Below, in pieces: positions 2,262 to 12,061 of a stretch of DNA of 64,000 bases (positions within the stretch are counted from its first letter, which is position 1; each line of letters starts with the position of its first letter). Position numbers and translations under genes: made by a program. This stretch comes from Planctomycetota bacterium (GTDB taxonomy: Bacteria; Planctomycetota; JAJSAM01; JAJVHW01). Below the pieces are notes generated by a model, which did no database searches, was not told the origin of the DNA, and saw only the letters and a list, made by a program, of their open reading frames with translations. The stretch covers positions 576,001 through 640,000 of the forward strand of contig CBDFJG010000001.1 of assembly GCA_965248445.1 (NCBI GenBank), given 5' to 3'.

Positions 2262-2394
2262 AACTCATCGAACGCACGAGCTTCCCGACGAAGTCCGCGG
2301 GTTCGGCTTCGAGTTGCTCGCGGTCGCCGTGCGTCTTGTACTCGCGCACACCCCGCATCAGTGCCTGCGCGATGTCGAGTCCGGCCTCACCGAA
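2262..2394 (-). pseudogene. Internal fragment of an IS66-family transposase
   Basis: Manual translation FGEAGLDIAQALMRGVREYKTHGDREQL aligns with FGKQAVRLAQAVMRAQRHFGEHGDRDRM and FGKKGVEIAGAVMRVHRGFRGHGDRTRL of the IS66 transposases in this window. Confidence 0.65.
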
Positions 2395-2395
2395 G

Positions 2396-3090
2396 CATGC
2401 ATATCCGGTTAATGACCGCGCCCACTACATCTTGTGCTAGAAGGGCAGCGGGCTTGCAGGCTCGTCGGCGTAGACCTGTTCGTACGTGCGCGGCGGCGTC
2501 TTCGCCGCGATGCCGAGGACCGTCTGGAACGCTGCCTGCGGCGTGCGTCTCCTGTTGAACCGGAACGTGAACTCGTCGAGATACCGCTGCAGGTGCTTCT
2601 CCGAGACCCGGCCGTGGTGCGTGCCTACGAGCCAGGTCTTGAGGTTGGAGAAGACCAGGTGGTGCAGGTGCCTCAGGACGTCCGCCTGCGCCGCGCCCAT
2701 CATCGTGGACTCGATCCCGTGCTCGTAGCCGAGTTTCTCGACTGCGTCGTAGGTCTCGTGGCCGTCGGTCACGACGAGCGCCCCACGCTCGATGCTGTCC
2801 TTGACGAACGCCAGCAGGTGCGGCTTCGATGAGGCCGGCACGTGGCGCAGCCGGATGCGTCCGGGCTGTGTGCCTCTCTTCGTCGGACGCACCTCGACCG
2901 CGCCGACCACGACGGCCTTGTCTGCCGCGGTGCGCTCCTCTCGGCCTCGAAACGGCGCTCCGATCAGCGCCTCGTCGACCTCGACGACGCCGAACAACTG
3001 CGCGCGCTCCGGCGCGACCATCGCAGATCGCAGTTTCTGGAGCATCTGGTACGCGGTCTCGTAGCGGGTCAGACCGAGCTGTCGCTGGAG
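2396..3090 (-). mobile_element. Truncated IS1595-family element (3' part and right TIR only)
   Basis: Near-identical reverse complement of ~7319-8008. TIR CATGCATATCCGGTTAATGACCG at 2396. Transposase C-terminus ends at 2437. Homology stops abruptly at 3090. Confidence 0.9.
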
Positions 3091-4400
3091 CCAGGGTCGA
3101 GCGGAACCTGTTCAGCGGCCAGCGGTCCGACGACCCCGGCGTCGACATCGACGGGCCGAACGCCGTGGTGCAAAAGAACCGGTTCGTCTACGGCCTCGGC
3201 GTCGGCATCCAGGTCGATGCCGAGAACGGTGGAACGGCCACGGTCTGCAAGAATACGGTCGATTCGATGGCGGGCGACTCCTACATCCTGGTGGAGAACG
3301 CGGCGGGCCCCAGGGTCCTGAAGAACGTCTTCAAGAACGCTTACATTGGCGATAGCTACGACCACGTCATCGACCTCCAGTCCTGTGACGACGCCCTAGT
3401 CTCCGGCAACAAGATACTGACGATGAACTACTCCATCGAGAGGGGGATCAACGTCGCGGGCGAACGGGCGACGGTAACGAAGAACTGCATCGAGAACGTG
3501 AATGGCTACTACTACGACCTGTATTGCATCTACGTGCAGGGGAACGACGCCGCGATCAGCCGCAACAAGATCCGGATCTGCGGCGCCGGGGAGGAATCCG
3601 ACACGTATGCGATCTACGTTTCCGGGAACACAGCGAGCGTCACGCGAAACGCGATCAACGACATAGCTGGTGGCGGCGACGAGATCTTCGGGGTCTATAT
3701 CGACGGCGACGACGGCTCCATCGACGGCAACCGGATCAGCCACCTGAACGAAGAGTACACGTACGCCATCTACTACACCGGCCACAGGGCCCGGATCGTC
3801 AAGAACAGGATCGCGCACGTGATGGCTGACGGGGACATCTACGTCCGCGGCGATGACTTCCTGATCGAGAACAACACCGTCAGGGACGGAGCGTACTACT
3901 GCACCGGTATCTACACGCGCGGATCCGCCACGATGCTCGGGGCGGCGGTGATCCAGCGGAACTCACTGAGCTTTCTCGGGTCGGACGGCATCGACCACGG
4001 AGGCAACGGGGTGGTCATCCGCGACAACAAGCTGAACCACCTGGCGGGGTTCGGGGTGATTGCGGACGGAAACGACAACGTGCTGATCGGTAACAGTGTG
4101 TCGGGCACGTACACGGCCGCTTTCCACATCGATGGCAACGACAACAGCGTGACGGGTTGTGCCGCCAGGGACAGCGACGGAGACGGGTTCAGGATCCAGG
4201 GCAACAACAACACGCTGGAGAACTGCACGGCGTCCAACTGCGCCGCCGAGGGCCTCGACAACAGCGGCACCGACACCAGCGCGATGAACTGCCGGTTCAC
4301 CGGCTCCCGAATCGACTACGCCGGCAACAACAACATGATCGACGACACCGGAACGACGTTCGGGACCGGAAGTGCCGCGACCGCGCCCGAGATCAACTGA
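3091..4400 (+). pseudogene. 5'-truncated right-handed parallel beta-helix repeat protein
   Basis: Repeated IxxNxI / GIYVxG units. The frame starts at the IS1595 breakpoint with no start codon or signal peptide of its own. Confidence 0.75.
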
Positions 4401-4524
4401 CCTCGGGACCATCGAGATCGGGACACCCGCGCGGACGGGTCCTGCGGATACCGAGATGGGATGAGATCCCGTCTTCTCGACCAAGGTTCTTAGAGCGTTG
4501 TTGGCGCTGCCCGCCTCGCCTGCG

Positions 4525-6056
4525 GTACCCGTTCAGGGTATGACGATCCGCGGCCTCAGCGCGTGATCGGGAGCGCGACGAGAGCCGGCGGCGAGCGGTT
4601 GTGCGCGAGTGCCGCGCTGACGTCTGCGAGGTAATCGAAGACGCTCTCGCCACGCTGGCGGAGCGTGGCGGTGACGGTCAGGATGCGCTCGACGAAGCGG
4701 AGTCCGCGCTCGCTCTGACTTCCGTGCGTTGCGCGTCTCCACAGGACCGGCTTGCGCACCGCGCGCTCAGCGGCGTTGTTCGTCGGGGAGACGCCAGGGA
4801 CGTCGGCGAAGGTCCACAGAGCCTCCGCTCGGTCGAGCAGATGCCGAGTCGTTCCGCGTACTCGGCGGTGCTTGCTGTCTGCGCCGCGCACGAGCAGCGT
4901 CAGGAGTCGGTCCCATGTGAGACGCAGCTCACGCCGCATGCGGTCGCGGTCCCCGTGCTCGCCGAAGTGACGCTGAGCTCGCATGACAGCCTGGGCGAGA
5001 CGCACGGCCTGCTTGCCGAAGCGCCGGCCGCCGCGCGAGCCCTCGGCCAGCGCTCGAAAGTCCCTCTCGAGATGCGCCCAGCAGATCTGGCGGCGCTCGG
5101 TGGGATGCTGGTCGTAAGCGCCCATACGGTCGGTCACGAGGACGCCCCTGAAGCGCTTGCCCACGAGTCGCCGCATGGCCTTGGCGCTCCTGCGCCGATC
5201 GATACGATGGACCGTGGCGTGCTCACAGACCGCGCTCCACAGCCAATGCAGCGTGCCACGACGCGACCACGGTGTCTCGTCTACATAGGCGACGCTGCTC
5301 GTGCGTACGGCCCCGAGGGCCTCGATGTGCGCTGAGGAGATGGCTCCCGACACCCGCTCCTCGATCGCACTGACCGTGCCCGGTGACATCGAGACGCCGA
5401 TGACGTCACGCAACAGACGACTGGTCTCGCGCCGCGACAGGCGGAAGACGCCGACCAGAGCCGCGGTGAGCGCACAGAGTCGCGGGCCGAAGGGACTCGC
5501 CGTCACACCGCTTGGCAGCGAGGCAGTGGACGTGGCGCCACAGTCCGTGCACCGTGCCCGGTGCAACCGGTGCTCGGTCACCTGGATCAGCCGTGGCGGG
5601 ACCTCGAAGACCTGCTGGCGTGTCGGGGCGCGATCGATCGGGACGAGCACGTCGCTCCCACACGCGCTGCACTCGCGCGGGCGGTGGTCCTCTACGCCAT
5701 CGACCTCGGACTCGTCCACGAGCTTGCGCGTCGCCCCTTTGTGGCCGGGCTGCGCACCCTGGCGCTTGTCCGACGGCGGCTTGCGCCGCCGCCGCTTCTT
5801 GGACCACGACGGATCCGAGGACGGTGGGCGCGAGGAGGTGCGGGAGTCCCGGCGAAGACGGCTCTCGAGATCGTCGATCCGTGCCGCCTGCCGCTCGATC
5901 ACCTCCGCCTGCTCGGCAATCGTCTCGTCCCGAGCGTCCAGACGACGGGTCAGGCGCTCGACCAGATCACGCAGCTCATCGGTGCCCACATCCGATTCAT
6001 CGACCGAACGGAAAGCGATCTGGATCCGAGCTCAGAACCAAGGGCTGAACGGGTAC
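4525..6056 (-). mobile_element. IS66-family single-ORF (ISBst12-like) element, copy 1
   Basis: TIRs GTACCCGTTCAG / CTGAACGGGTAC. 8-bp target duplication CGCCTGCG at 4517-4524 and 6057-6064. Length 1532 bp. Confidence 0.95.
4556..5989 (-). CDS. IS66-family transposase
   Basis: N-terminal coiled coil, SSRPPSSD, GAQPGH, two CxxC pairs, DET, LVTD, QICWAHLER and TNNAAER motifs. Confidence 0.93.
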   Translation of the reverse strand: MGTDELRDLVERLTRRLDARDETIAEQAEVIERQAARIDDLESRLRRDSRTSSRPPSSDPSWSKKRRRRKPPSDKRQGAQPGHKGATRKLVDESEVDGVEDHRPRECSACGSDVLVPIDRAPTRQQVFEVPPRLIQVTEHRLHRARCTDCGATSTASLPSGVTASPFGPRLCALTAALVGVFRLSRRETSRLLRDVIGVSMSPGTVSAIEERVSGAISSAHIEALGAVRTSSVAYVDETPWSRRGTLHWLWSAVCEHATVHRIDRRRSAKAMRRLVGKRFRGVLVTDRMGAYDQHPTERRQICWAHLERDFRALAEGSRGGRRFGKQAVRLAQAVMRAQRHFGEHGDRDRMRRELRLTWDRLLTLLVRGADSKHRRVRGTTRHLLDRAEALWTFADVPGVSPTNNAAERAVRKPVLWRRATHGSQSERGLRFVERILTVTATLRQRGESVFDYLADVSAALAHNRSPPALVALPITR

Positions 6057-6967
6057 CGCCTGCGCGCGGGGACCGCGCTCGGCGGGCCGCGAGGACAGGT
6101 TGGGTGGTGCGACGCCTTCGCCTGTCGGCTCGGGCATGAATCCGGGGCGGCGGAGCGCGCGCGAGTTCGCTCGGAAGACTCGTGGCTCATGCGGGCACCT
6201 GCGTGGCCGACGTGGCCACGGGTGTGGGCCGGGGGACGAAGGGCTGTTTGTTTCGAGCCACCCAGTGGACGGCGACCAGGAGCTTTCGCATGGACGCGAC
6301 GAGGGCGACCTTCGGGAGCTTGCCCTGGGACCGAAGCCGTTCGTAGAAGGCGCGCAGCCAGGGGTTCCTGCGCACCGCGGTCAGGACGGGCATCCACAGG
6401 GCCCTGCGCAGCCGGGCGTGCCCGATGCGGGTGATGGCGGCGCGTTGGCCCTGGTTGCGTCCGGACTGCTTGAGTGCCGGGACGACCCCGATGTATGACG
6501 CCAGCGCCTTGGCGTCGCGGAAACGAGTGATGTCGCCCAGCTCCGCGACGAGCCGCGCGGCGGTCTGTGGCCCGATGCCGTCGATGGTCGTGAGGAGCTT
6601 GCCGACCTCGTGGTGCTCCAGGGTTCCCCCGATCAGCTTCTCCAAGTCGCGAAGGCGCCGGCGCAGCAAGTCCAGATCCTCGCAGGCGTACCGGACCTGA
6701 GTGCGATAGGCCTCGGCGTGGTGGCGGCCCACGGACGACTTGGCTGCACGGACCAGGTCTTGGGCAAGCTGCCGCCCGACTCGGTGACGTCCGTCGTAAC
6801 GGAGCGCGGCGAGTCGCTTGACCGAGACACCCACAAAGGCCTGCGCGGTGGGATGGCGGTTGAGCAGCGCCGTGGCGAGTTCGCTGTCGAGGGTGCGGAC
6901 GTGGCGTGTGAACTCCGGGAAACCCAGGTCCACCAAGCGGTGAAGCCGGCGGACCCGGTCTCCAAAG

Positions 6968-8008
6968 CATGCATATCCGGTTGACGACCGTGACCCCAAG
7001 GGGTAGTGTCTCGGACGCATGCCGAAGCCGGGCTACCCTCGCAACATCGTGGAGTTCACGGAGCAGTTCGCGACGGAAGAGCAGTGCCTCGAGTACCTCG
7101 TGCAGTGTCGTTGGCCCGACGGGTTCCGCTGCCGCCGGTGCGGCGGCAAGAAGTACTGGCCCCGTCCAGATCGAAGAGCGATGCGGTGCGTGGGCTGCGA
7201 CCTGATCACGTCGGTCACCGCGGGCACAGTGCTGCATCGCAGCCGGCTGCCGCTGAAGTCCTGGATGTGGGCCGCGTACTTGATGACGACGGACAAGCGG
7301 GGCGTCTCTGCGCTCGCACTCCAGCGACAGCTCGGTCTGACCCGCTACGAGACCGCGTACCAGATGCTCCAGAAACTGCGATCTGCGATGGTCGCGCCGG
7401 AGCGCGCGCAGTTGTTCGGCGTCGTCGAGGTCGACGAGGCGCTGATCGGAGCGCCGTTTCGAGGCCGAGAGGAGCGCACCGCGGCAGACAAGGCCGTCGT
7501 GGTCGGCGCGGTCGAGGTGCGTCCGACGAAGAGAGGCACACAGCCCGGACGCATCCGGCTGCGCCACGTGCCGGCCTCATCGAAGCCGCACCTGCTGGCG
7601 TTCGTCAAGGACAGCATCGAGCGTGGGGCGCTCGTCGTGACCGACGGCCACGAGACCTACGACGCAGTCGAGAAACTCGGCTACGAGCACGGGATCGAGT
7701 CCACGATGATGGGCGCGGCGCAGGCGGACGTCCTGAGGCACCTGCACCTGGTCTTCTCCAACCTCAAGACCTGGCTCGTAGGCACGCACCACGGCCGGGT
7801 CTCGAAGAAGCACCTGCAGCGGTATCTCGACGAGTTCACGTTCCGGTTCAACAGGAGACGCACGCCGCAGGCAGCGTTCCAGACGGTCCTCGGCATCGCG
7901 GCGAAGACGCCGCCGCACGTACGAACAGGTCTACGCCGACGAGCCTGCAAGCCCGCTGCCCTTCTAGCACAAGATGTAGTGGGCGCGGTCATTAACCGGA
8001 TATGCATG
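6968..8008 (+). mobile_element. IS1595-family element, full length
   Basis: TIRs CATGCATATCCGGTTGACGACCG / CGGTCATTAACCGGATATGCATG. 8-bp duplication CTCCAAAG at 6960-6967 and 8009-8016 (6 bp if the TIR is drawn 1 bp longer). Confidence 0.93.
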
Positions 8009-8038
8009 CTCCAAAGTCCTGGACCACGCGATCCCTGA
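7019..8038 (+). CDS. IS1595-family transposase with a frameshifted extreme C-terminus
   Basis: Zinc ribbon CRRC...CVGC, VEVDE, VTDG and YLDEFTFRFNRR. A 2-bp deletion near 7915 relative to the partial copy makes the ORF run through the TIR. Confidence 0.9.
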   Translation: MPKPGYPRNIVEFTEQFATEEQCLEYLVQCRWPDGFRCRRCGGKKYWPRPDRRAMRCVGCDLITSVTAGTVLHRSRLPLKSWMWAAYLMTTDKRGVSALALQRQLGLTRYETAYQMLQKLRSAMVAPERAQLFGVVEVDEALIGAPFRGREERTAADKAVVVGAVEVRPTKRGTQPGRIRLRHVPASSKPHLLAFVKDSIERGALVVTDGHETYDAVEKLGYEHGIESTMMGAAQADVLRHLHLVFSNLKTWLVGTHHGRVSKKHLQRYLDEFTFRFNRRRTPQAAFQTVLGIAAKTPPHVRTGLRRRACKPAALLAQDVVGAVINRICMLQSPGPRDP

Positions 8039-8479
8039 GTCTGACGAGCTCGCGCAGTTCCTCGGTGCCGGAGTCGGGCAGCCGCGTGGGCTCCGGGCGT
8101 TTCTGGCGAGCGAACCGGGCGAGCCCGAGGGCGTCGATGGCATCGGTCTTGGTCCGCTGCAGGTCCTCGCCGGCGAAGCGGTGGGTCCGCAGCGGATTGA
8201 TCAGCACCATGGCGAAACCGCGCGAGAGAAGCTCCGCCGCCAAGTTGCGCCAGTAGTGCCCGGTCGCCTCCAAGGCCACGAGCACGTCTCGAGGGACGCC
8301 GAGCAACTCGAAGAGCTCCTCGTAGCCCTGTGCGTCCTCACCGAAGGCGGTGGGCCGCACCAGGATCTCTTCGTCCTCGTCCATCACCGCCACGACGTGC
8401 TTCTTCGAAGCGATGTCTATCCCCGCGTAGCGCATCGTGCACCTCCTGTCATGCGACGAGGAGGACCGGGAGCCTCGGA

Positions 8480-8665
8480 GCCGGCGACCGTACTCATCCT
8501 TGTTCATGCGAGGACGCGCGTCTGCGCGCCTCAGGATCCCGTCCGAGCGTGGGTCGCCGGTCGAGGGCGCCAATCTCATCTCCGAGGACTGCGCCTCGTG
8601 AAGGCCGCGGCGACCCTCTCCCGGCTCTCGTCGATCTCTGTCCACCGTAGGTCGCGGGCATGAGT
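8480..8665 (-). ncRNA. Bridge RNA of the IS621-like element (ends approximate)
   Basis: Two stem / internal loop / stem modules. Target loop carries CGGCCTTC and GATGAG; donor loop carries ACGGGATC and ACAAG. All four match the element's flanks or ends. Confidence 0.85.
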
Positions 8666-8760
8666 GGACGTCATACAAGAAGGCCGGTCCCTGCCTCGGT
8701 GTAACCCGTAGCGGTTTCCAGAGGCGCTGACGGGCTTGCGAGCCCGAGGAGGAACCGGCT

Positions 8761-9804
8761 ATGGCAAAGGCTACACGTTTCGTGATCGGGATGGACCTGG
8801 GCGACCGCGTGGTGCCTGTGTGTGTGCTGGACCGCAAGACGGGCGAGATCGTGGGCGAAGGGCGCGTCGCGACGACGCGTGCTCGCCTGACGGAGTTCCT
8901 CGGCGAGATCGAGCGCTCGAAGGTGGTGATGGAGAGCGGGACGCACTCGCCGTGGATCAGCCGCCTCGCCGAGGGTCTTGGTCACGACGTCATCGTGGCC
9001 GATGCGCGTCGGCTGCGCGCGGTGTGGGACTCGCCCAAGAAGAGTGACCGCCGCGACGCGCTGGTTCTGGCGCAACTGGGGGCCGGGCACCCAGGGCTCC
9101 TTCATCCGGTGTCTCACCGGAGCGAGCGCGCACAGACCCACATGGTCGTGCTCCGAGCGCGCGAGCGTGTGGTCGACGCGCGTACGAAGTTGGTCAATGC
9201 CGCGCGGGGCTCGGTGAAGTCGCTCGGGTACCGATTGCCCGCTTGCTCCGCTCCGAGCTTCCATCGCAAGGCACGCGAGGCGGTGCCGGAAACCCTCGTG
9301 GACGCCCTGGCCCCGTTGTTCGACGCGATCGCAGCGTTGACGGAGAGCATCGCGCGCTACGACCGCGAAGTCGAGCGTCTCGGCCGCGACGCGTATCCGG
9401 TGACACGACGCCTTCGCGAGGTACCCGGCTGCGGTCCCGTCACCGCGCTCGCCTACGTGCTCGTCGTCCACGACCCAGAGCGCTTCTCGCGCAATCGCGA
9501 CGTGGGCGCGTACGTCGGTCTCGTCCCGCGCCAGGACCAGTCGGGCAAGATCGATCGCCAACTCAGGATCACGAAGTGCGGCGACCGGATGCTCCGCCGG
9601 CTGCTCGTGCAGTGCGCGCACTACGTGCTCGGACCACACGGGCCCGACAGCGACCTGAGACGCTGGGGTCTGGAGCTGGCGCAACGGGGCGGGAAGAACG
9701 CGAAGAAACGGGCGACCGTCGCGGTCGCCCGCAAGCTCGCCGTGCTCTTCCACGCTCTGTGGATGAAGGACCGCGCGTACGAGCCGCTCGCTCGAGCGGC
9801 GTGA
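8761..9804 (+). CDS. IS110-family (IS1111 group) recombinase, intact
   Basis: GMDLG, MESG, KSDRRDA (DEDD), VPGCGP, GLVPRQDQSG and AVARKLA. RBS GAGGAGG upstream. Confidence 0.93.
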   Translation: MAKATRFVIGMDLGDRVVPVCVLDRKTGEIVGEGRVATTRARLTEFLGEIERSKVVMESGTHSPWISRLAEGLGHDVIVADARRLRAVWDSPKKSDRRDALVLAQLGAGHPGLLHPVSHRSERAQTHMVVLRARERVVDARTKLVNAARGSVKSLGYRLPACSAPSFHRKAREAVPETLVDALAPLFDAIAALTESIARYDREVERLGRDAYPVTRRLREVPGCGPVTALAYVLVVHDPERFSRNRDVGAYVGLVPRQDQSGKIDRQLRITKCGDRMLRRLLVQCAHYVLGPHGPDSDLRRWGLELAQRGGKNAKKRATVAVARKLAVLFHALWMKDRAYEPLARAA

Positions 9805-9869
9805 TGACCGACTGAACACCACGAACAACACGGGAGTCTGATCGACCGAGCAACGCGCCCACCCGGGCG

Positions 9870-10080
9870 ATGCCCATCTCCCAACTCGAAGGCGCGACGA
9901 CTGCGGTGGCTGAACGGGCCCGGCCCCGGCCGAGGCCGCGTAACTGATGGCAGCGTCGCCCTCGAGCGGATGCCTCAACGTGCACCGGGTCCAAACGACC
10001 CCCTGACGAGTGCGGATGGATGCGTGCAGAGGGAGCCGGCATCGGCTGCGGTGGACGGATCGCCAAGTCGATCCGACGCC
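9870..10080 (+). ncRNA. Candidate bridge/seek RNA in the 3' non-coding end of the IS1111-type element (ends approximate)
   Basis: Outer stem GCGACG-A-CTGC (9894-9904) / GCAGCGTCGC (9950-9959) encloses loop segments TGGCTGAACG and GTAACTG around a GGCC-rich inner hairpin. Confidence 0.7.
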
Positions 10081-10086
10081 TTGACA
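10081..10086 (+). promoter_or_regulatory. Outward-facing -35 box in the IS1111 right end (half of a circle-junction promoter)
   Basis: Perfect TTGACA just inside the right sTIR, as known for IS1111 elements. The matching -10 across the junction is poor. Confidence 0.55.
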
Positions 10087-10105
10087 CAAGAGGCCTTCTC
10101 ATGGA

Positions 10106-11632
10106 CGTTCAGCCATTGTGTCTGAGCCCGTATCCAGATCTCCGAGCGGGTTGACGATGAACACCATGTGGGCAAGGACGACCTCCGCGAGTTGATCGAG
10201 CGGCAGTCGCGGCGTCTCGCTGCCCAGGACGAGAAGATCGCTGAGCAGCAGCGTGTCATCGAGGGGCAGCAGGAGGAGATCGCAGATCTTCGGAACCGCC
10301 TGAAGCGGGATTCGCGCAACTCGTCGCGGCCGCCGTCCTCGGACGCGCCGTGGTCCAAGCGTCGGCGCCGGCGAAAGCCCCCGTCGGACAAGAAGCAGGG
10401 CGGCCAGCTGGGTCACGAGGGCAGGACGCGGCGGCTGGTGGACGAGGACGAGGTCGATGACGTCGAGGACCACCGCCCGAGCGAGTGCTCGAGCTGCGGG
10501 GGCAAGGAGCTCGAGCCGCTGGCGCGTCGTCCGCACCGCCACCAGGTGTGGGAGATCCCGCGGGTGCTGGTCCCGGTGACCGAGCATCGTCTTCACCGTG
10601 CGCGCTGCCGGGAGTGCGGCGAGGTGGTGGCGGCGGCGTTGCCCGAGGGCGTCACCAAGAGCGCCTTGGGCCCGCGGCTGAGCGCGCTTGCGGCATCCTT
10701 GAGCGGCGTCTACCGCGTGAGCCGCCGCGAGGTCTCCCGGCTTCTCTCGGAGGTCTTCGGTGTGACGATGTCGCCCGGCACCGTGAGCGCCATCGAGGGA
10801 CGGCTCGGTGAAGGGCTCTCGCTGCCGCACATCCAGGCGCTTGGCGCGGTGCGCACGAGCTCGGTGGCCAACGTGGACGAGACGCCGTGGAGCGAACGTG
10901 GCGAGCTGCGCTGGCTCTGGACCGCGGTGGCCGAAGGCGTTACCGCGCACCGCATCGACTCCCGCCGCAACGCGGCCGCGATGAAGCGCCTGATCGGCCG
11001 GCGCTATCGCGGGGTGCTGGTGACCGACCGCATGGGCGCCTACGACAAGCACCCGCTCAAGAGGCGCCAGCTCTGCTGGGCCCACTTGGAGCGCGACTTC
11101 CGCGCTCTCGCCGAAGGGCCGCGGGGCGGATGGGTCTTCGGCAAGAAGGGCGTCGAGATCGCGGGGGCCGTGATGCGAGTGCACCGCGGCTTCCGCGGCC
11201 ACGGCGACCGCACCCGGCTCGCGCGCCAGCTCCGCGATCCCAAGCGCCGGCTCCGCCGCCTGCTCGAACGCGGGGCACGCGCCAAGCACTGTCCGGTCAG
11301 GGGCATGTCCAAGCACCTGCTGGCGCGCTTCGATGCGCTCTTCACCTTCGCCGAGGTCCCCGACGTCGACCCTACGAACAACGCCGCCGAACGCGCGGTC
11401 CGCAAGCCGGTGCTCTGGCGCAAGGGCTGCTACGGCAGCCAGTCCGCTCGCGGCGAACGCTTCGTCGAGCGAGTGCTCACGGCCACCGCGACGCTGCGCC
11501 GCCGGGGGGGCAAGTCTTCGACTTCCTCGCCGACTCGCTCGCCGCGCACGTCTCCGGCGCCGACCCACCCGTCCTCGTCAGCCTGCCGATCCCGCGCTGA
11601 GGATCAGGGCCCCCGAAGGGCTGAACGGGTAC
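10106..11632 (+). mobile_element. Second IS66-family (ISBst12-like) element, with its left TIR cut by the IS1111 element
   Basis: Left TIR remnant CGTTCAGCC at 10106. Right TIR GGCTGAACGGGTAC ends at 11632. No target duplication recoverable. Confidence 0.88.
10168..11600 (+). pseudogene. IS66-family transposase with a frameshift in a G7 run
   Basis: Paralog of 4556-5989. One extra G at 11504-11510 restores ...RRRGGQVFDFLADSLAAHVSGADPPVLVSLPIPR*. Confidence 0.85.
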
Positions 11633-11730
11633 GTCGAGGTCGCCCGCAATGCGATCACCGGCACTCCGGCTCCTCGGCTCGTCCCTCAGGCCGCCTCGGC
11701 CTGAGGCTGGATACCCACGTGAACGGGTAC
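11633..11730 (+). mobile_element. 3' remnant of another IS66-family element
   Basis: VEVARNAITGTPAPRLVPQAASA* resembles the IS66 C-termini in this window. It is followed by TIR-like GTGAACGGGTAC ending at 11730. Confidence 0.6.
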
Positions 11731-12061
11731 TCGCGCTCTACCGGAGACTCCAGGTGACTCGCCCGTTCTCTGCCCCCTGTTCCAGTATGACGACCGACAT
11801 CAATGGCGACTTCAGTCGGACGTCTCGACTGTCCACAATCTCACCGCCCGCGATCGTCTGTGACACCGTCTCCTTGTCCAGCGTGTTGAAGTAGACGGTC
11901 AACCGCGAACCAGCCGGTTCGGGAGCGTCATTCCGTACGACGACCGCCCGTCCTCGTCGAGGGAGGTTCGGGGTCGATCTGATCCAGATCCGGAACGTCT
12001 TCGCGCGCGACAGCGCTGAGGTGGTCGTGATGTCGCGGGCGGTGTCGGGCGTTCCATCCAC

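What the first reader, a model, noticed from the sequence alone, without database searches (positions are those of the whole stretch)
4447..11632. Three-tier chain of RNA-guided elements: IS110 targets IS1111, which targets IS66
Seen: removing insertions in order (IS1595 6968-8008, IS66 4525-6056, IS110 4464-8679, IS1111 4454-10105) leaves clean joins each time. Removing the IS110 rebuilds ATGAGAAGGCC, the inverse of the IS1111 right sTIR. Removing the IS1111 leaves GATAC-CG-TTCAGCC at the start of an IS66 element. In both IS110-family steps the element's own non-coding end carries guides matching the site it occupies. Known: IS110-family recombinases use bridge/seek RNAs, and IS4321/IS5075 target Tn21 terminal repeats. 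Inference: one bridge-recombinase element is programmed against the end of another, which is itself programmed against a DDE transposon end. I do not know of such a chain being described, but cannot check the literature here.
Basis: partly seen in the sequence, partly recalled or inferred. Interest (0 to 1): 0.92.

Follow-up and report, generated by a model that had tools for sequence, protein, structure and literature searches.

The report
RNA-guided transposons aimed at each other
In this planctomycete genome one RNA-guided jumping gene is aimed by its own guide RNA at the end of a second RNA-guided jumping gene, which is in turn aimed at the ends of an ordinary transposon; each single step has precedents, but the stacked arrangement appears not to have been described.

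Summary
The nest is real. An IS66-family and an IS1595-family element sit, each with an 8-bp duplication, inside an IS110-group element. That element sits without duplication in the left sub-terminal repeat of an IS1111-group element, whose right end abuts an IS66-family terminal repeat.

Step 1 (IS110 into IS1111) is strongly supported.
- All 4 of 4 genomic IS110 copies occupy the same position, each beside a different outer flank.
- An exact empty site exists elsewhere in the genome.
- The two guide segments of a covariation-supported bridge RNA spell the site CGGCCTT-CT-CATCTC.
- None of 39 relatives with a recognisable scaffold carries these guides.

Step 2 (IS1111 into IS66 ends) is supported less cleanly.
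- The element's guide loop spells GTAAC-(T/C)G-TTCAGCCA, against the IS66 tip GTACC-(C/T)G-TTCAGCC.
- Two independent right junctions and one left junction fit this.
- The left junction in this window does not rebuild an IS66 tip.
- Two other left junctions lie at an unrelated repeated motif.
- Recombination between element copies has made mosaics.

Precedents exist for bridge or seek-RNA elements that target other transposons: IS1383 into IS1384 repeats, IS4321 into Tn21 repeats, and ISEc21 into IS3 transposase genes. I therefore class this as a new variant of a known kind, of moderate interest.

The parts
4440..4453 (.). Left flank of the IS1111-type end (TCCTGCGGATACCG). It is not an IS66 tip. 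The same flank, with 1.38 kb to its left, is duplicated at C4:1674415-1675794.
4454..4465 (+). IS1111-type left tip: core AG (4454-4455), 5-nt extension ATGGG (4456-4460), and the first part of the left sub-terminal repeat, ATGAG (4461-4465). 4464-4465 also serve as the IS110 core.
4466..8679 (-). IS110-group element, counted with the right-hand core copy AG at 8678-8679 (CT on its own strand). Its own length is about 1.62 kb. Here it carries two nested insertions and is therefore dead.
4525..6056 (-). IS66-family element with a single transposase ORF, 4556-5989(-). Its ends are GTACCCGTTCAG.../...CTGAACGGGTAC, with the 8-bp duplication CGCCTGCG at 4517-4524 and 6057-6064. It is one of 32 or more near-identical copies.
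6187..6967 (-). C-terminal part of the IS110 recombinase gene (Transposase_20 domain).
6968..8008 (+). IS1595-family element with 8-bp duplication CTCCAAAG at 6960-6967 and 8009-8016.
8017..8435 (-). N-terminal part of the IS110 recombinase gene (DEDD_Tnp_IS110 domain), with its start codon at 8435-8433.
8443..8627 (-). Bridge RNA region of the IS110 element: a target-binding stem-loop and a donor-binding stem-loop.
   Evidence: 36 sequences, 34 pairs, 11 with compensatory changes
8598..8608 (-). Left target guide. The RNA letters GCGGCCUUCAC include CGGCCUUC, which equals the left target half plus the first core base.
8573..8583 (-). Right target guide. The RNA letters GGAGAUGAGAU are complementary to AT-CT-CATCTC.
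8680..8760 (+). Remainder of the IS1111 left end, starting AAGGCCGGTCCC, where AGGCC is the second part of the left sub-terminal repeat.
8761..9804 (+). IS1111-group DEDD recombinase gene, 347 aa.
9805..10105 (+). IS1111 right non-coding end (301 nt), which encodes its seek/bridge RNA. The right sub-terminal repeat is at 10092-10102 and the 3-nt extension GGA at 10103-10105.
9907..9916 (+). Top-strand guide TGGCUGAACG, the reverse complement of CG-TTCAGCCA (the core plus the 8 nt to the right of this copy).
9940..9950 (+). Bottom-strand guide GUAAC-UG-AUGG: 5 nt of left target, the core, and the first 4 nt of the element.
10016..10022 (+). Donor guide AUGGA-UG: the right tip of the element plus the core.
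10106..10107 (+). Core dinucleotide CG at the right junction.
10108..11632 (+). Outer IS66-family element. It is single-copy and lacks its first 5-7 nt. Its right end is ...GGGCTGAACGGGTAC at 11632, and its transposase ORF starts at 10168.

Best explanation
Two different RNA-guided DEDD (bridge or seek RNA) insertion sequences live in this genome, and each is programmed against another transposon.

Step 1. The IS110-group element makes a bridge RNA of about 185 nt from its upstream non-coding region.
- The internal loop of the first stem-loop carries CGGCCUUC and GAGAUGAGAU.
- Together these specify CGGCCTT-CT-CATCTC.
- That sequence is the outermost part of the left end of IS1111-group elements: the inner half of the sub-terminal repeat, the core, the outer half, and the 5-nt extension.
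- The recombinase exchanges strands at the CT core and inserts the circularised element without duplication.
- This splits the IS1111 repeat and separates the IS1111 tip from its gene.

Step 2. The IS1111-group element makes its RNA from the downstream non-coding end.
- One loop carries UGGCUGAA-CG and GUAAC-UG-AUGG, which specify GTAAC-(C/T)G-TTCAGCCA.
- This matches the first 14-15 nt of IS66-family terminal repeats in this genome, GTACC-(C/T)G-TTCAGCC, with one mismatch.

The IS66 and IS1595 copies inside the IS110 are ordinary untargeted DDE insertions.

Shown: the anatomy, the copy positions, the empty site, the guide-to-site matches, and guide-to-flank covariation in relatives.
Inferred: that the RNAs are made and used, that insertion disables the IS1111, and the order of events.

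The odd left junction in this window is best explained by later homologous exchange between element copies.
For: IS110 step.
- 4 of 4 copies, 100% identical over the aligned parts, lie at the same position and in the same orientation. Their outer flanks are four different sequences, and two different IS1111 tips occur (AG-ATGGG once, TG-ATGAG three times).
- The IS1111 bodies to the right are of two types, 72-85% identical to each other over most 60-nt bins of the recombinase gene.
- The join occurs exactly at an unoccupied site.
- 44 of 85 loci (the own copy, 4 genome relatives, 80 metagenome loci) have the same RNA scaffold, and all cores read CT.
- The right guide matches its own right flank for 5 nt or more in 27 of 34 loci, against 5.4% of swapped pairs. 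The left guide matches for 6 nt or more in 9 of 34, against 1.4%. The own copy scores 8 and 6.
- The RNAalifold consensus of 36 sequences has two stem-loops with 11 of 34 pairs showing compensatory changes.
- None of the 39 other scaffold-bearing relatives carries guides for this site.

IS1111 step.
- Of 30 relatives fetched, 20 show the sub-terminal repeat with a readable left tip, as in the 7/3 layout described in PMC11187229.
- 17 of the 19 with both junctions readable have the same core on both sides.
- A match of 8 nt or more, running flank-core-element, lies in the right end of 10 of 17 relatives.
- In the 147-191 nt window from the end, 5 of 6 evaluable relatives match all 5 flank bases.
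- A core-anchored top-strand match of 8 nt or more is found in 5 of 17 relatives, against 1 of 270 swapped pairs. This window's copy has 10 of 10.
- Junctions: right end to CG-TTCAGCCATTG here; right end to TG-TTCAGCCATTG at C3:295661 (the C2:855573 copy lies in the same duplicated block); left junction GTACC-TG at C4:88337.
- 14 of the 92 intact tips natively carry TG at the core.
Against: - The window's own IS1111 left flank (TACCG before the core) matches 0 of 5 bases of the guide. The outer IS66 has no target duplication.
- Two of four IS1111 left junctions (C3:478470 and C4:1974281) lie at GGCGTTGG-TG. This is part of a motif with 14 full copies (GGCGTTGGTGCATGA), for which no surviving right end has guides.
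- Three of four IS1111 copies have lost their right ends, so only 2 independent right junctions exist.
- None of the 45 intact tips of the form GTA[AC]C[CT]GTTCAGCC is occupied.
- The copy at C4:84343-85659 is a mosaic: its first 120 nt or so are identical to the window's type and the rest is identical to the other type. Recombination or conversion has therefore acted next to the IS110 copies. The identity of the IS110 copies could partly reflect conversion, and the number of independent IS110 insertions is at least 2, not provably 4.
- No RNA or transposition data exist.
- The MFE folds of the single sequences are only weakly better than shuffles (z = -2.3, -2.6, -1.5).
Confidence: 0.75

Rival explanations
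1. The IS110-in-IS1111 arrangement arose once and was then spread. The routes would be segmental duplication, homologous recombination or gene conversion, or transposition of the IS1111::IS110 composite as one unit. There would then be no repeated RNA-guided targeting of IS1111 ends.
For: - One IS1111 copy is a mosaic with about 120 nt next to the IS110 identical to another type.
- Large duplicated blocks exist in this genome: 1.38 kb at 99.6% identity and at least 2.2 kb identical.
- Three of four left tips are the same, TG-ATGAG.
Against: - The four outer flanks differ from the first base outside the 13-nt tip. Homology to the left of the IS110 is therefore far too short for conversion to copy it in.
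- Two tip variants and two body types carry it.
- An exact empty site exists.
- Both guides spell the site, at positions validated in relatives.
Confidence: 0.08
2. The IS1111 element is not specialised on IS66 ends. The match of its loop to the IS66 tip and the few junctions would be coincidence, or a relic of one event. Its real target would be something else, for example the GGCGTTGGTGCATGA motif.
For: - 2 of 4 left junctions lie at that motif, with the TG core in the right place.
- The window's left junction is not an IS66 tip.
- No intact IS66 tip of the 92 is newly occupied, and only two independent right junctions exist.
Against: - The 10-nt top-strand guide and the 5+2+4 bottom-strand guide sit where relatives carry guides for their own sites.
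- The chance of a 10-nt exact match anywhere in a 300-nt end is about 3 in 10,000 (my arithmetic).
- The two right junctions are in different IS66 variants, with different cores CG and TG.
- The surviving right ends contain no guide for the motif.
Confidence: 0.15
3. The nest is an assembly artefact of a repeat-rich genome.
For: - The genome holds dozens of identical IS copies.
- Only short-read-derived contigs could be laid, and they break at repeat borders, so no single record spans the nest.
Against: - Every junction has the signature expected of a real insertion: 8-bp duplications, shared cores, and an exact rebuild of intact copies.
- Contigs of four runs cross 8679/8680 (for example a 744-nt record covering 8009-8752).
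- Depths scale with copy number: roughly 300, 30 and 19 for IS66, IS110 and IS1111 in run X1.
- The runs probably come from the sample that gave the assembly, so this is not independent support.
Confidence: 0.02

Closest known systems
IS1383 (IS1111 group) integrating into the inverted repeats of IS1384 in Pseudomonas putida H (Muller, Lauf and Herrmann 2001; I saw only the title, in the reference list of PMC11208160)
   Same: An IS1111-group element whose specific target is the terminal repeat of another insertion sequence. This is the same kind of relation as step 2 here.
   Different: A different host, target family and sequence. No second RNA-guided element sitting on top of it is reported in the title. 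I could not read the paper.
IS4321/IS5075 (IS1111 group) targeting the 38-bp terminal repeats of Tn21-family transposons (Partridge and Hall 2003; title seen, and the 7/3 extension rule read as summarised in PMC11187229; the paper itself is not held)
   Same: Sub-terminal repeats, a 7-nt left and 3-nt right extension, orientation-specific insertion without duplication into a transposon's terminal repeat.
   Different: The target is a Tn3-family transposon end, not an IS66 end. The sub-terminal repeat sequence here (ATGAGAAGGCC) belongs to a clade found in 32 of 401 genomes searched in this phylum.
ISEc21 (IS110 group), whose target lies in the DDE codons of IS3-family transposase genes (PMC11187229, section 12 read)
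   Same: An IS110-group element with an upstream non-coding RNA whose natural target lies inside another insertion sequence. The top-strand match lies 3' of the bottom-strand match, as here.
   Different: ISEc21 hits a coding region of a DDE transposase. The element here hits the non-coding recombination end of another DEDD, RNA-guided element.
IS621 bridge RNA system (PMC11208160, passages read)
   Same: Two stem-loops with internal loops that bind target and donor, a CT core, and a left and a right target guide that each include core positions.
   Different: IS621 targets REP-like chromosomal sequence. The recombinase here is a distant relative whose activity is untested.

Membership tests
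IS110 group of the IS110 family (bridge-RNA elements) | DEDD RuvC-like domain plus Tnp (Transposase_20) domain in one recombinase | tested here: met
   PF01548 scores 1.6e-34 on 7992-8837(-) and PF02371 scores 1.7e-29 on 6187-7020(-). An intact ORF in two other copies gives a 447-aa open frame, probably 399 aa from the MRYAGID start.
IS110 group of the IS110 family (bridge-RNA elements) | Long non-coding region upstream of the recombinase gene that encodes a two-loop RNA | tested here: met
   About 240 nt lie upstream. The consensus of 36 sequences has 34 pairs, 11 of them with compensatory changes. No Rfam family matched.
IS110 group of the IS110 family (bridge-RNA elements) | Loop segments complementary to both halves of the target and to the element's own ends, around a shared core dinucleotide | tested here: met
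   Target guides match 8 and 6 (+4) nt with core CT. Donor segments are ACGGGAUC and ACAAG.
IS110 group of the IS110 family (bridge-RNA elements) | Insertion without target duplication | tested here: met
   The join equals the empty site exactly over 78 nt.
IS110 group of the IS110 family (bridge-RNA elements) | RNA bound by the recombinase and required for transposition | not testable with these tools
   No RNA-holding run is listed.
IS1111 group | Sub-terminal inverted repeats of 11-13 bp with 7-nt left and 3-nt right extensions | tested here: met
   ATGAGAAGGCC occurs on both sides, with AG+ATGGG on the left and GGA on the right. The same layout is seen in 20 relatives.
IS1111 group | Non-coding region downstream of the recombinase gene, with the top-strand match 5' of the bottom-strand match | tested here: met
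   The right end is 301 nt. The guides lie at 9907-9916 (top strand) and 9940-9950 (bottom strand). The order is as stated in PMC11187229 section 9.
IS1111 group | Both flanks of a copy match its guides | tested here: inconclusive
   The right flank matches 10 of 10. The left flank of this window's copy matches 0 of 5. The left flank of the C4:88337 copy matches 4 of 5 plus the core.
IS66 family | DDE_Tnp_IS66 transposase, terminal inverted repeats, 8-bp target duplication | tested here: met
   Inner copy: PF03050 at 5.8e-32, ends GTACCCGTTCAG, and an 8-bp duplication. Outer copy: the domain is met, but the left tip and the duplication are not present. No tnpA/tnpB-like accessory ORFs were seen. 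The single-ORF subgroup name is recalled, not tested.
IS1595 family | DDE_Tnp_IS1595 plus an N-terminal zinc ribbon, terminal repeats, 8-bp duplication | tested here: met
   PF12762 scores 2.4e-30 and PF12760 scores 2e-10. The ends are CATGCATATCCGGTT and its complement, with the 8-bp duplication CTCCAAAG.

The most novel reading that the evidence does not exclude
The IS110-group element acts as a hyperparasite of IS1111-group elements. Its bridge RNA has been reprogrammed onto the one stretch an IS1111 cannot easily change: the tip and sub-terminal repeat that its own RNA and recombinase must recognise. It has thereby knocked out every full-length IS1111 copy in this genome. Its identical copies then act as portable homology that reshuffles the IS1111 elements. 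This would be a natural arms race between two co-resident, orthogonal RNA-guided recombination systems.
Probability: 0.3. Interest if true: 0.75.

Novelty: new variant of a known kind. Interest (0 to 1): 0.55.

Why it matters
It gives a natural example of two bridge or seek-RNA recombination systems working in one cell with non-overlapping guide, donor and core rules (CT core against NG core). That is the kind of orthogonal pair people try to engineer.

It shows that the recombination end of one RNA-guided element can itself be the programmed target of another. It also suggests a simple test of whether such an insertion disables the host element.

The 40 or so relatives collected here carry readable guide-to-flank pairs. 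They form a small natural data set for the targeting rules of this recombinase clade.

It adds to the picture that IS110-family elements repeatedly pick other transposons as safe, multi-copy landing sites. A relative in the same bacterial family sits inside an rve-type transposase gene.

Tried and rejected
- Rfam scan of 4300-11800 at E up to 1. There were only two chance-level hits and no bridge-RNA family.
- Genome-contig scan with the IS1111 recombinase. It gave only two partial loci at 65% and 53% identity, of no use for flanks.
- DNA search of 61 relatives with the IS110 5' part. One real relative was found, at 71% identity.
- Sequencing runs. No RNA holder is listed. The four holders are contigs from one sample and break at repeat borders, so they neither prove nor disprove the long-range order.
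- Second guide module. I tried to read the 15-nt patch that differs between the two 99%-identical IS1111 copies (10041-10055 here) as a second guide module for the GGCGTTGGTGCATGA site. The similarity needs a gap, and relatives give no consistent support, so I dropped it and left the patch unexplained.
- The window's left junction as a variant IS66 tip. No tip of the form TACCG-N-GTTCAG exists in the genome (0 hits).
- CCCAUCU at 9873-9879 as a donor guide. It fits the window's tip AG-ATGGG. A few relatives with unusual tips have matching segments, but most show nothing of 6 nt or more, so this is only a lead.
- Protein homology, structure and complex tools were not used. The families are clear from Pfam.

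Full report
**Setting.** The window is C1:576001-640000 of a 5.4-Mb, 4-contig, 69% G+C genome. Earlier notes of this scan call it a high-GC planctomycete, and the nearest public hit for one recombinase is a Planctomycetota MAG. The genome is full of insertion sequences. A 1530-nt query from the inner IS66 element finds 32 copies at 90% identity or more over more than 90% of its length, most of them 100% identical. The IS1595 element has 6 such copies, and the outer IS66 only itself.

**Anatomy.**
- The inner IS66 (4525-6056) and the IS1595 (6968-8008) each have perfect 8-bp duplications.
- Cutting both out, with one duplication copy each, gives 1627 nt identical to the intact copy at C4:1972655-1974281.
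- The IS110-group element lies on the minus strand. On its own strand the junctions read ...CCGGCCTT-CT-TGTATGAC... and ...GACGGGAT-CT-CATCCCATC..., so the dinucleotide CT is shared by both junctions.
- Removing it with one CT rebuilds ATGAGAAGGCC, the exact inverse of the right repeat at 10092-10102.
- The 78-nt join is present, uninterrupted, at C4:~1674400.
- The IS1111-group element has the layout described for the group in PMC11187229: an 11-nt sub-terminal repeat, 7 nt outside it on the left (AG+ATGGG), 3 nt on the right (GGA), and a 301-nt non-coding right end.

**Step 1, IS110 into IS1111.**
- The genome has four IS110 copies and four IS1111-type recombinase genes, one of them truncated. 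Every IS110 copy sits at the same place in an IS1111 left end.
- The outer flanks are four unrelated sequences. The 7-nt tip is AG-ATGGG once and TG-ATGAG three times.
- The bodies to the right are of two types that are 58-85% identical per 60-nt bin across the gene.
- The only IS1111-type left end without the IS110 is the remnant on C4. Its continuation (CCGGACGCAGTAGCG...) is as far from this window's type (73% over 70 nt) as from relatives in other genomes (71-74%).

- There are 4 relatives among the 401 genomes searched in the phylum, at 59-68% amino-acid identity.
- There are 80 metagenome loci at 58-74% identity.
- 44 of 85 loci have the scaffold TCGCC-[variable]-GAGGC...GTCCTC-[variable]-TGGCG.
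- In a 36-sequence alignment this scaffold folds into a stem, an internal loop and a hairpin, followed by a second stem-loop. 11 of 34 pairs show compensatory changes.
- The two variable stretches track the flanks. After the CT core, the right one matches its own flank for 5 nt or more in 27 of 34 distinct loci, against 5.4% of swapped pairs. The left one matches for 6 nt or more in 9 of 34, against 1.4%.
- In this genome's element they read CGGCCUUC and GAGAUGAGAU, which gives CGGCCTT-CT-CATCTC.
- This is a perfect fit to the TG-ATGAG type of left end and a one-mismatch fit to the window's AG-ATGGG type.
- The right repeat of the IS1111 shares only GGCCTTCTCAT and then diverges, which fits the exclusive use of the left end.
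- None of the 39 relatives with a scaffold has these guide letters.
- The second stem-loop carries ACGG(G/U)AUC and ACAAG, which match the element's own two ends around CT.

**Step 2, IS1111 into IS66 ends.**
- 32 of 401 genomes of the phylum hold a relative of the recombinase at E of 1e-40 or better (at most 56% identity), and 30 loci were fetched.
- 20 show the same repeat word and a readable left tip. Of the 19 with both junctions readable, 17 have the same dinucleotide on both sides: AG 14 times, AC twice, GG once. The element therefore also recombines at a shared core.
- In their right ends, a segment equal to "5 flank bases + core + first 4 element bases" lies 147-191 nt from the end. 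It matches all 5 flank bases in 5 of 6 evaluable relatives. Matches of 8 nt or more of this kind occur in 10 of 17.
- About 25-45 nt upstream lies the reverse complement of "core + 7-8 right-flank bases". This is 8 nt or more in 5 of 17 relatives, against 1 of 270 swapped pairs.
- At the corresponding places this window's element reads UGGCUGAA-CG (9907-9916) and GUAAC-UG-AUGG (9940-9950). These lie on the two sides of an internal loop closed by GCGACGACUGC/GCAGCGUCGC. The distal hairpin shows a G-C to A-U change in the other element type.
- The specified site is GTAAC-(C/T)G-TTCAGCCA. With G-U wobble both guides accept C or T at the first core base (my inference).
- The IS66-type ends of this genome read GTACC-(C/T)G-TTCAG(CC/GG). 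There are 92 intact tips, 45 with TTCAGCC and 14 with TG.
- Observed junctions that fit:
  - the right junction here (GGA-CG-TTCAGCCATTG, continuing into an IS66 transposase gene);
  - a right-end remnant at C3:295661 (GGA-TG-TTCAGCCATTG, continuing into the last 31 codons of an IS66 transposase). Its twin on C2 lies in the same duplicated block of at least 2.2 kb and counts as one event;
  - the left junction GAGTACC-TG at C4:88337.

**What does not fit.**
- The left flank in this window reads GGATACCG before the core. The join after removing 4454-10105 is GGATACCG|CGTTCAGCC.
No such tip exists elsewhere, the outer IS66 lacks a duplication, and the two junction cores differ (AG and CG).
- The same flank plus tip occurs at the C4 remnant, inside a 1380-nt duplication that is 99.6% identical and bounded on its other side by an IS1595 fragment.
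- Two further left junctions (C3:478470 and C4:1974281) read GGCGTTGG-TG followed by the tip. GGCGTTGGTGCATGA occurs 14 times in the genome with unique left flanks. It is the reverse complement of ribosome-site-plus-ATGCACCAACGCC starts of short reading frames.
- The TG lies exactly where the core should be, so these look like true insertions at a second kind of site. However, the right ends of those two copies are truncated or lost, and the surviving right ends have no guide for it.
- The copy at C4:84343-85659 is identical to the window's type for its first 120 nt or so and identical to the other type afterwards.
- My reading, which is inferred, is that the identical IS110 copies and the adjacent left-end DNA have served as homology for exchanges between loci. 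Left and right halves of some nests, including this one, then no longer come from one insertion event.
- An alternative is an aberrant or off-target integration. I cannot decide between them.

**Independence.** At least two IS110 insertions are required, because two tip variants and two body types carry it. Four is the simplest count, because homology to the left of the IS110 is only 13 nt. The 100% identity of the IS110 copies may reflect recent movement, conversion, or both.

**Assembly.**
- Four runs of one sample, probably the source of the assembly, hold 91-96% of the sampled words of 4300-10300.
- Their contigs stop at repeat borders. They show the alternative joints expected from intact IS110 copies elsewhere (4516 to 6057 and 6959 to 8009), and they cross 8679/8680.
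- Their depths follow copy number.
- This is consistent with the assembly but is not independent proof of the long-range order.

**Literature.**
- I read sections 9, 12 and 13 and passages of PMC11187229, and passages of PMC11208160 and of the preprint 10.64898/2026.08.14.744561.
- Known natural targets include Tn21 terminal repeats (IS4321/IS5075), the inverted repeats of IS1384 (IS1383; title only), and IS3-family transposase codons (ISEc21).
- Seven full-text searches found no report of an IS110-group element aimed at an IS1111-group end, and no report of a two-step chain.
- Most of the older subscription literature and ISfinder notes are outside the library. The supplements of the two 2024 papers, which list many targets, were not examined.

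**Verdict.** Step 1 is well supported, and step 2 is supported at the guide level with conflicting junctions. The locus is probably a recombinant rather than a clean stack. The kind of relation, an RNA-guided IS that lands in another transposon, is known. One RNA-guided element aimed at the recombination end of another, and the two relations chained in one genome, is a new variant.

Noticed in passing
genome-wide; e.g. C4:~1673900-1674300 (three copies); target of IS1111 tips at C3:478470 and C4:1974281: The motif GGCGTTGGTGCATGA(A/G)(T/C) occurs 14-16 times, each with a unique sequence on one side. Read on the other strand it is a ribosome-binding site followed by ATG CAC CAA CGC C, opening short frames (MHQR...), some only 10-11 codons long. 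It could be a shared leader or regulatory element, and it is a second recurrent landing site of IS1111 tips.
   Followed up: partly
window 3090-4466 and C4:1674415-1675794: A 1380-nt duplication at 99.6% identity covers the 3' part of the NosD-like gene and an IS1111-type tip. In the window it is bounded on the left by a partial IS1595 (2394-3090). The C4 copy lacks the IS110 and continues as a different IS1111-type left end with no recombinase gene.
   Followed up: partly
window 10041-10055 versus C3:~483005-483020: Two IS1111 copies that are 99% identical differ in a single 15-nt patch of the right end: ATCGGCTGCGGTGGA against AACGCACAACGTGGG. The patch looks like a swapped module. Its role is unexplained.
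   Followed up: partly
C4:84343-85659: This IS1111 copy is a mosaic. Its first 120 nt or so are 100% identical to the window's type, and the rest is 100% identical to the type at C4:1972045-1972654.
   Followed up: yes
L045 (G006, same bacterial family), stored coordinates 2284-2613: An IS1111-clade left end abuts an rve-type (IS3/IS481-like) transposase gene, cut just before ...IRVDNGPEF (rve_3 4.9e-27). This resembles the published ISEc21 target region.
   Followed up: partly
L027 (G177): The last 323 nt of an IS1111-clade element, from AG-TCCGGGTGACTGCGG to the right tip, are repeated head to tail at least twice after the element. This is a tandem array of the RNA-coding right end.
   Followed up: partly
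window 6968-8008: This IS1595 copy is 2-4 nt shorter than the other copies (1040 nt against 1042-1044 aligned; small insertions at 7766 and 7913 in contigs of other copies). Two overlapping long frames suggest a frameshifted transposase.
   Followed up: no
window 10168-11757: The outer IS66 transposase frame runs past the element's right end at 11632, after a G-run near 11500. This single-copy element is probably decayed.
   Followed up: no
C3:480170-481706: An IS66-family variant has inserted into the left end of the IS1111 copy on C3, 73 nt after the IS110. Its tips are GGTACCCGTTCAGG and ...CCTGAACGGATACC, flanked by GAGGAGG on both sides.
   Followed up: no
C3:1386235: An unoccupied near-target of the IS110 lies inside what looks like a gene: CGGCCTTCTCATCGG, with the left half perfect and 4 of 6 bases of the right half matching.
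   Followed up: no
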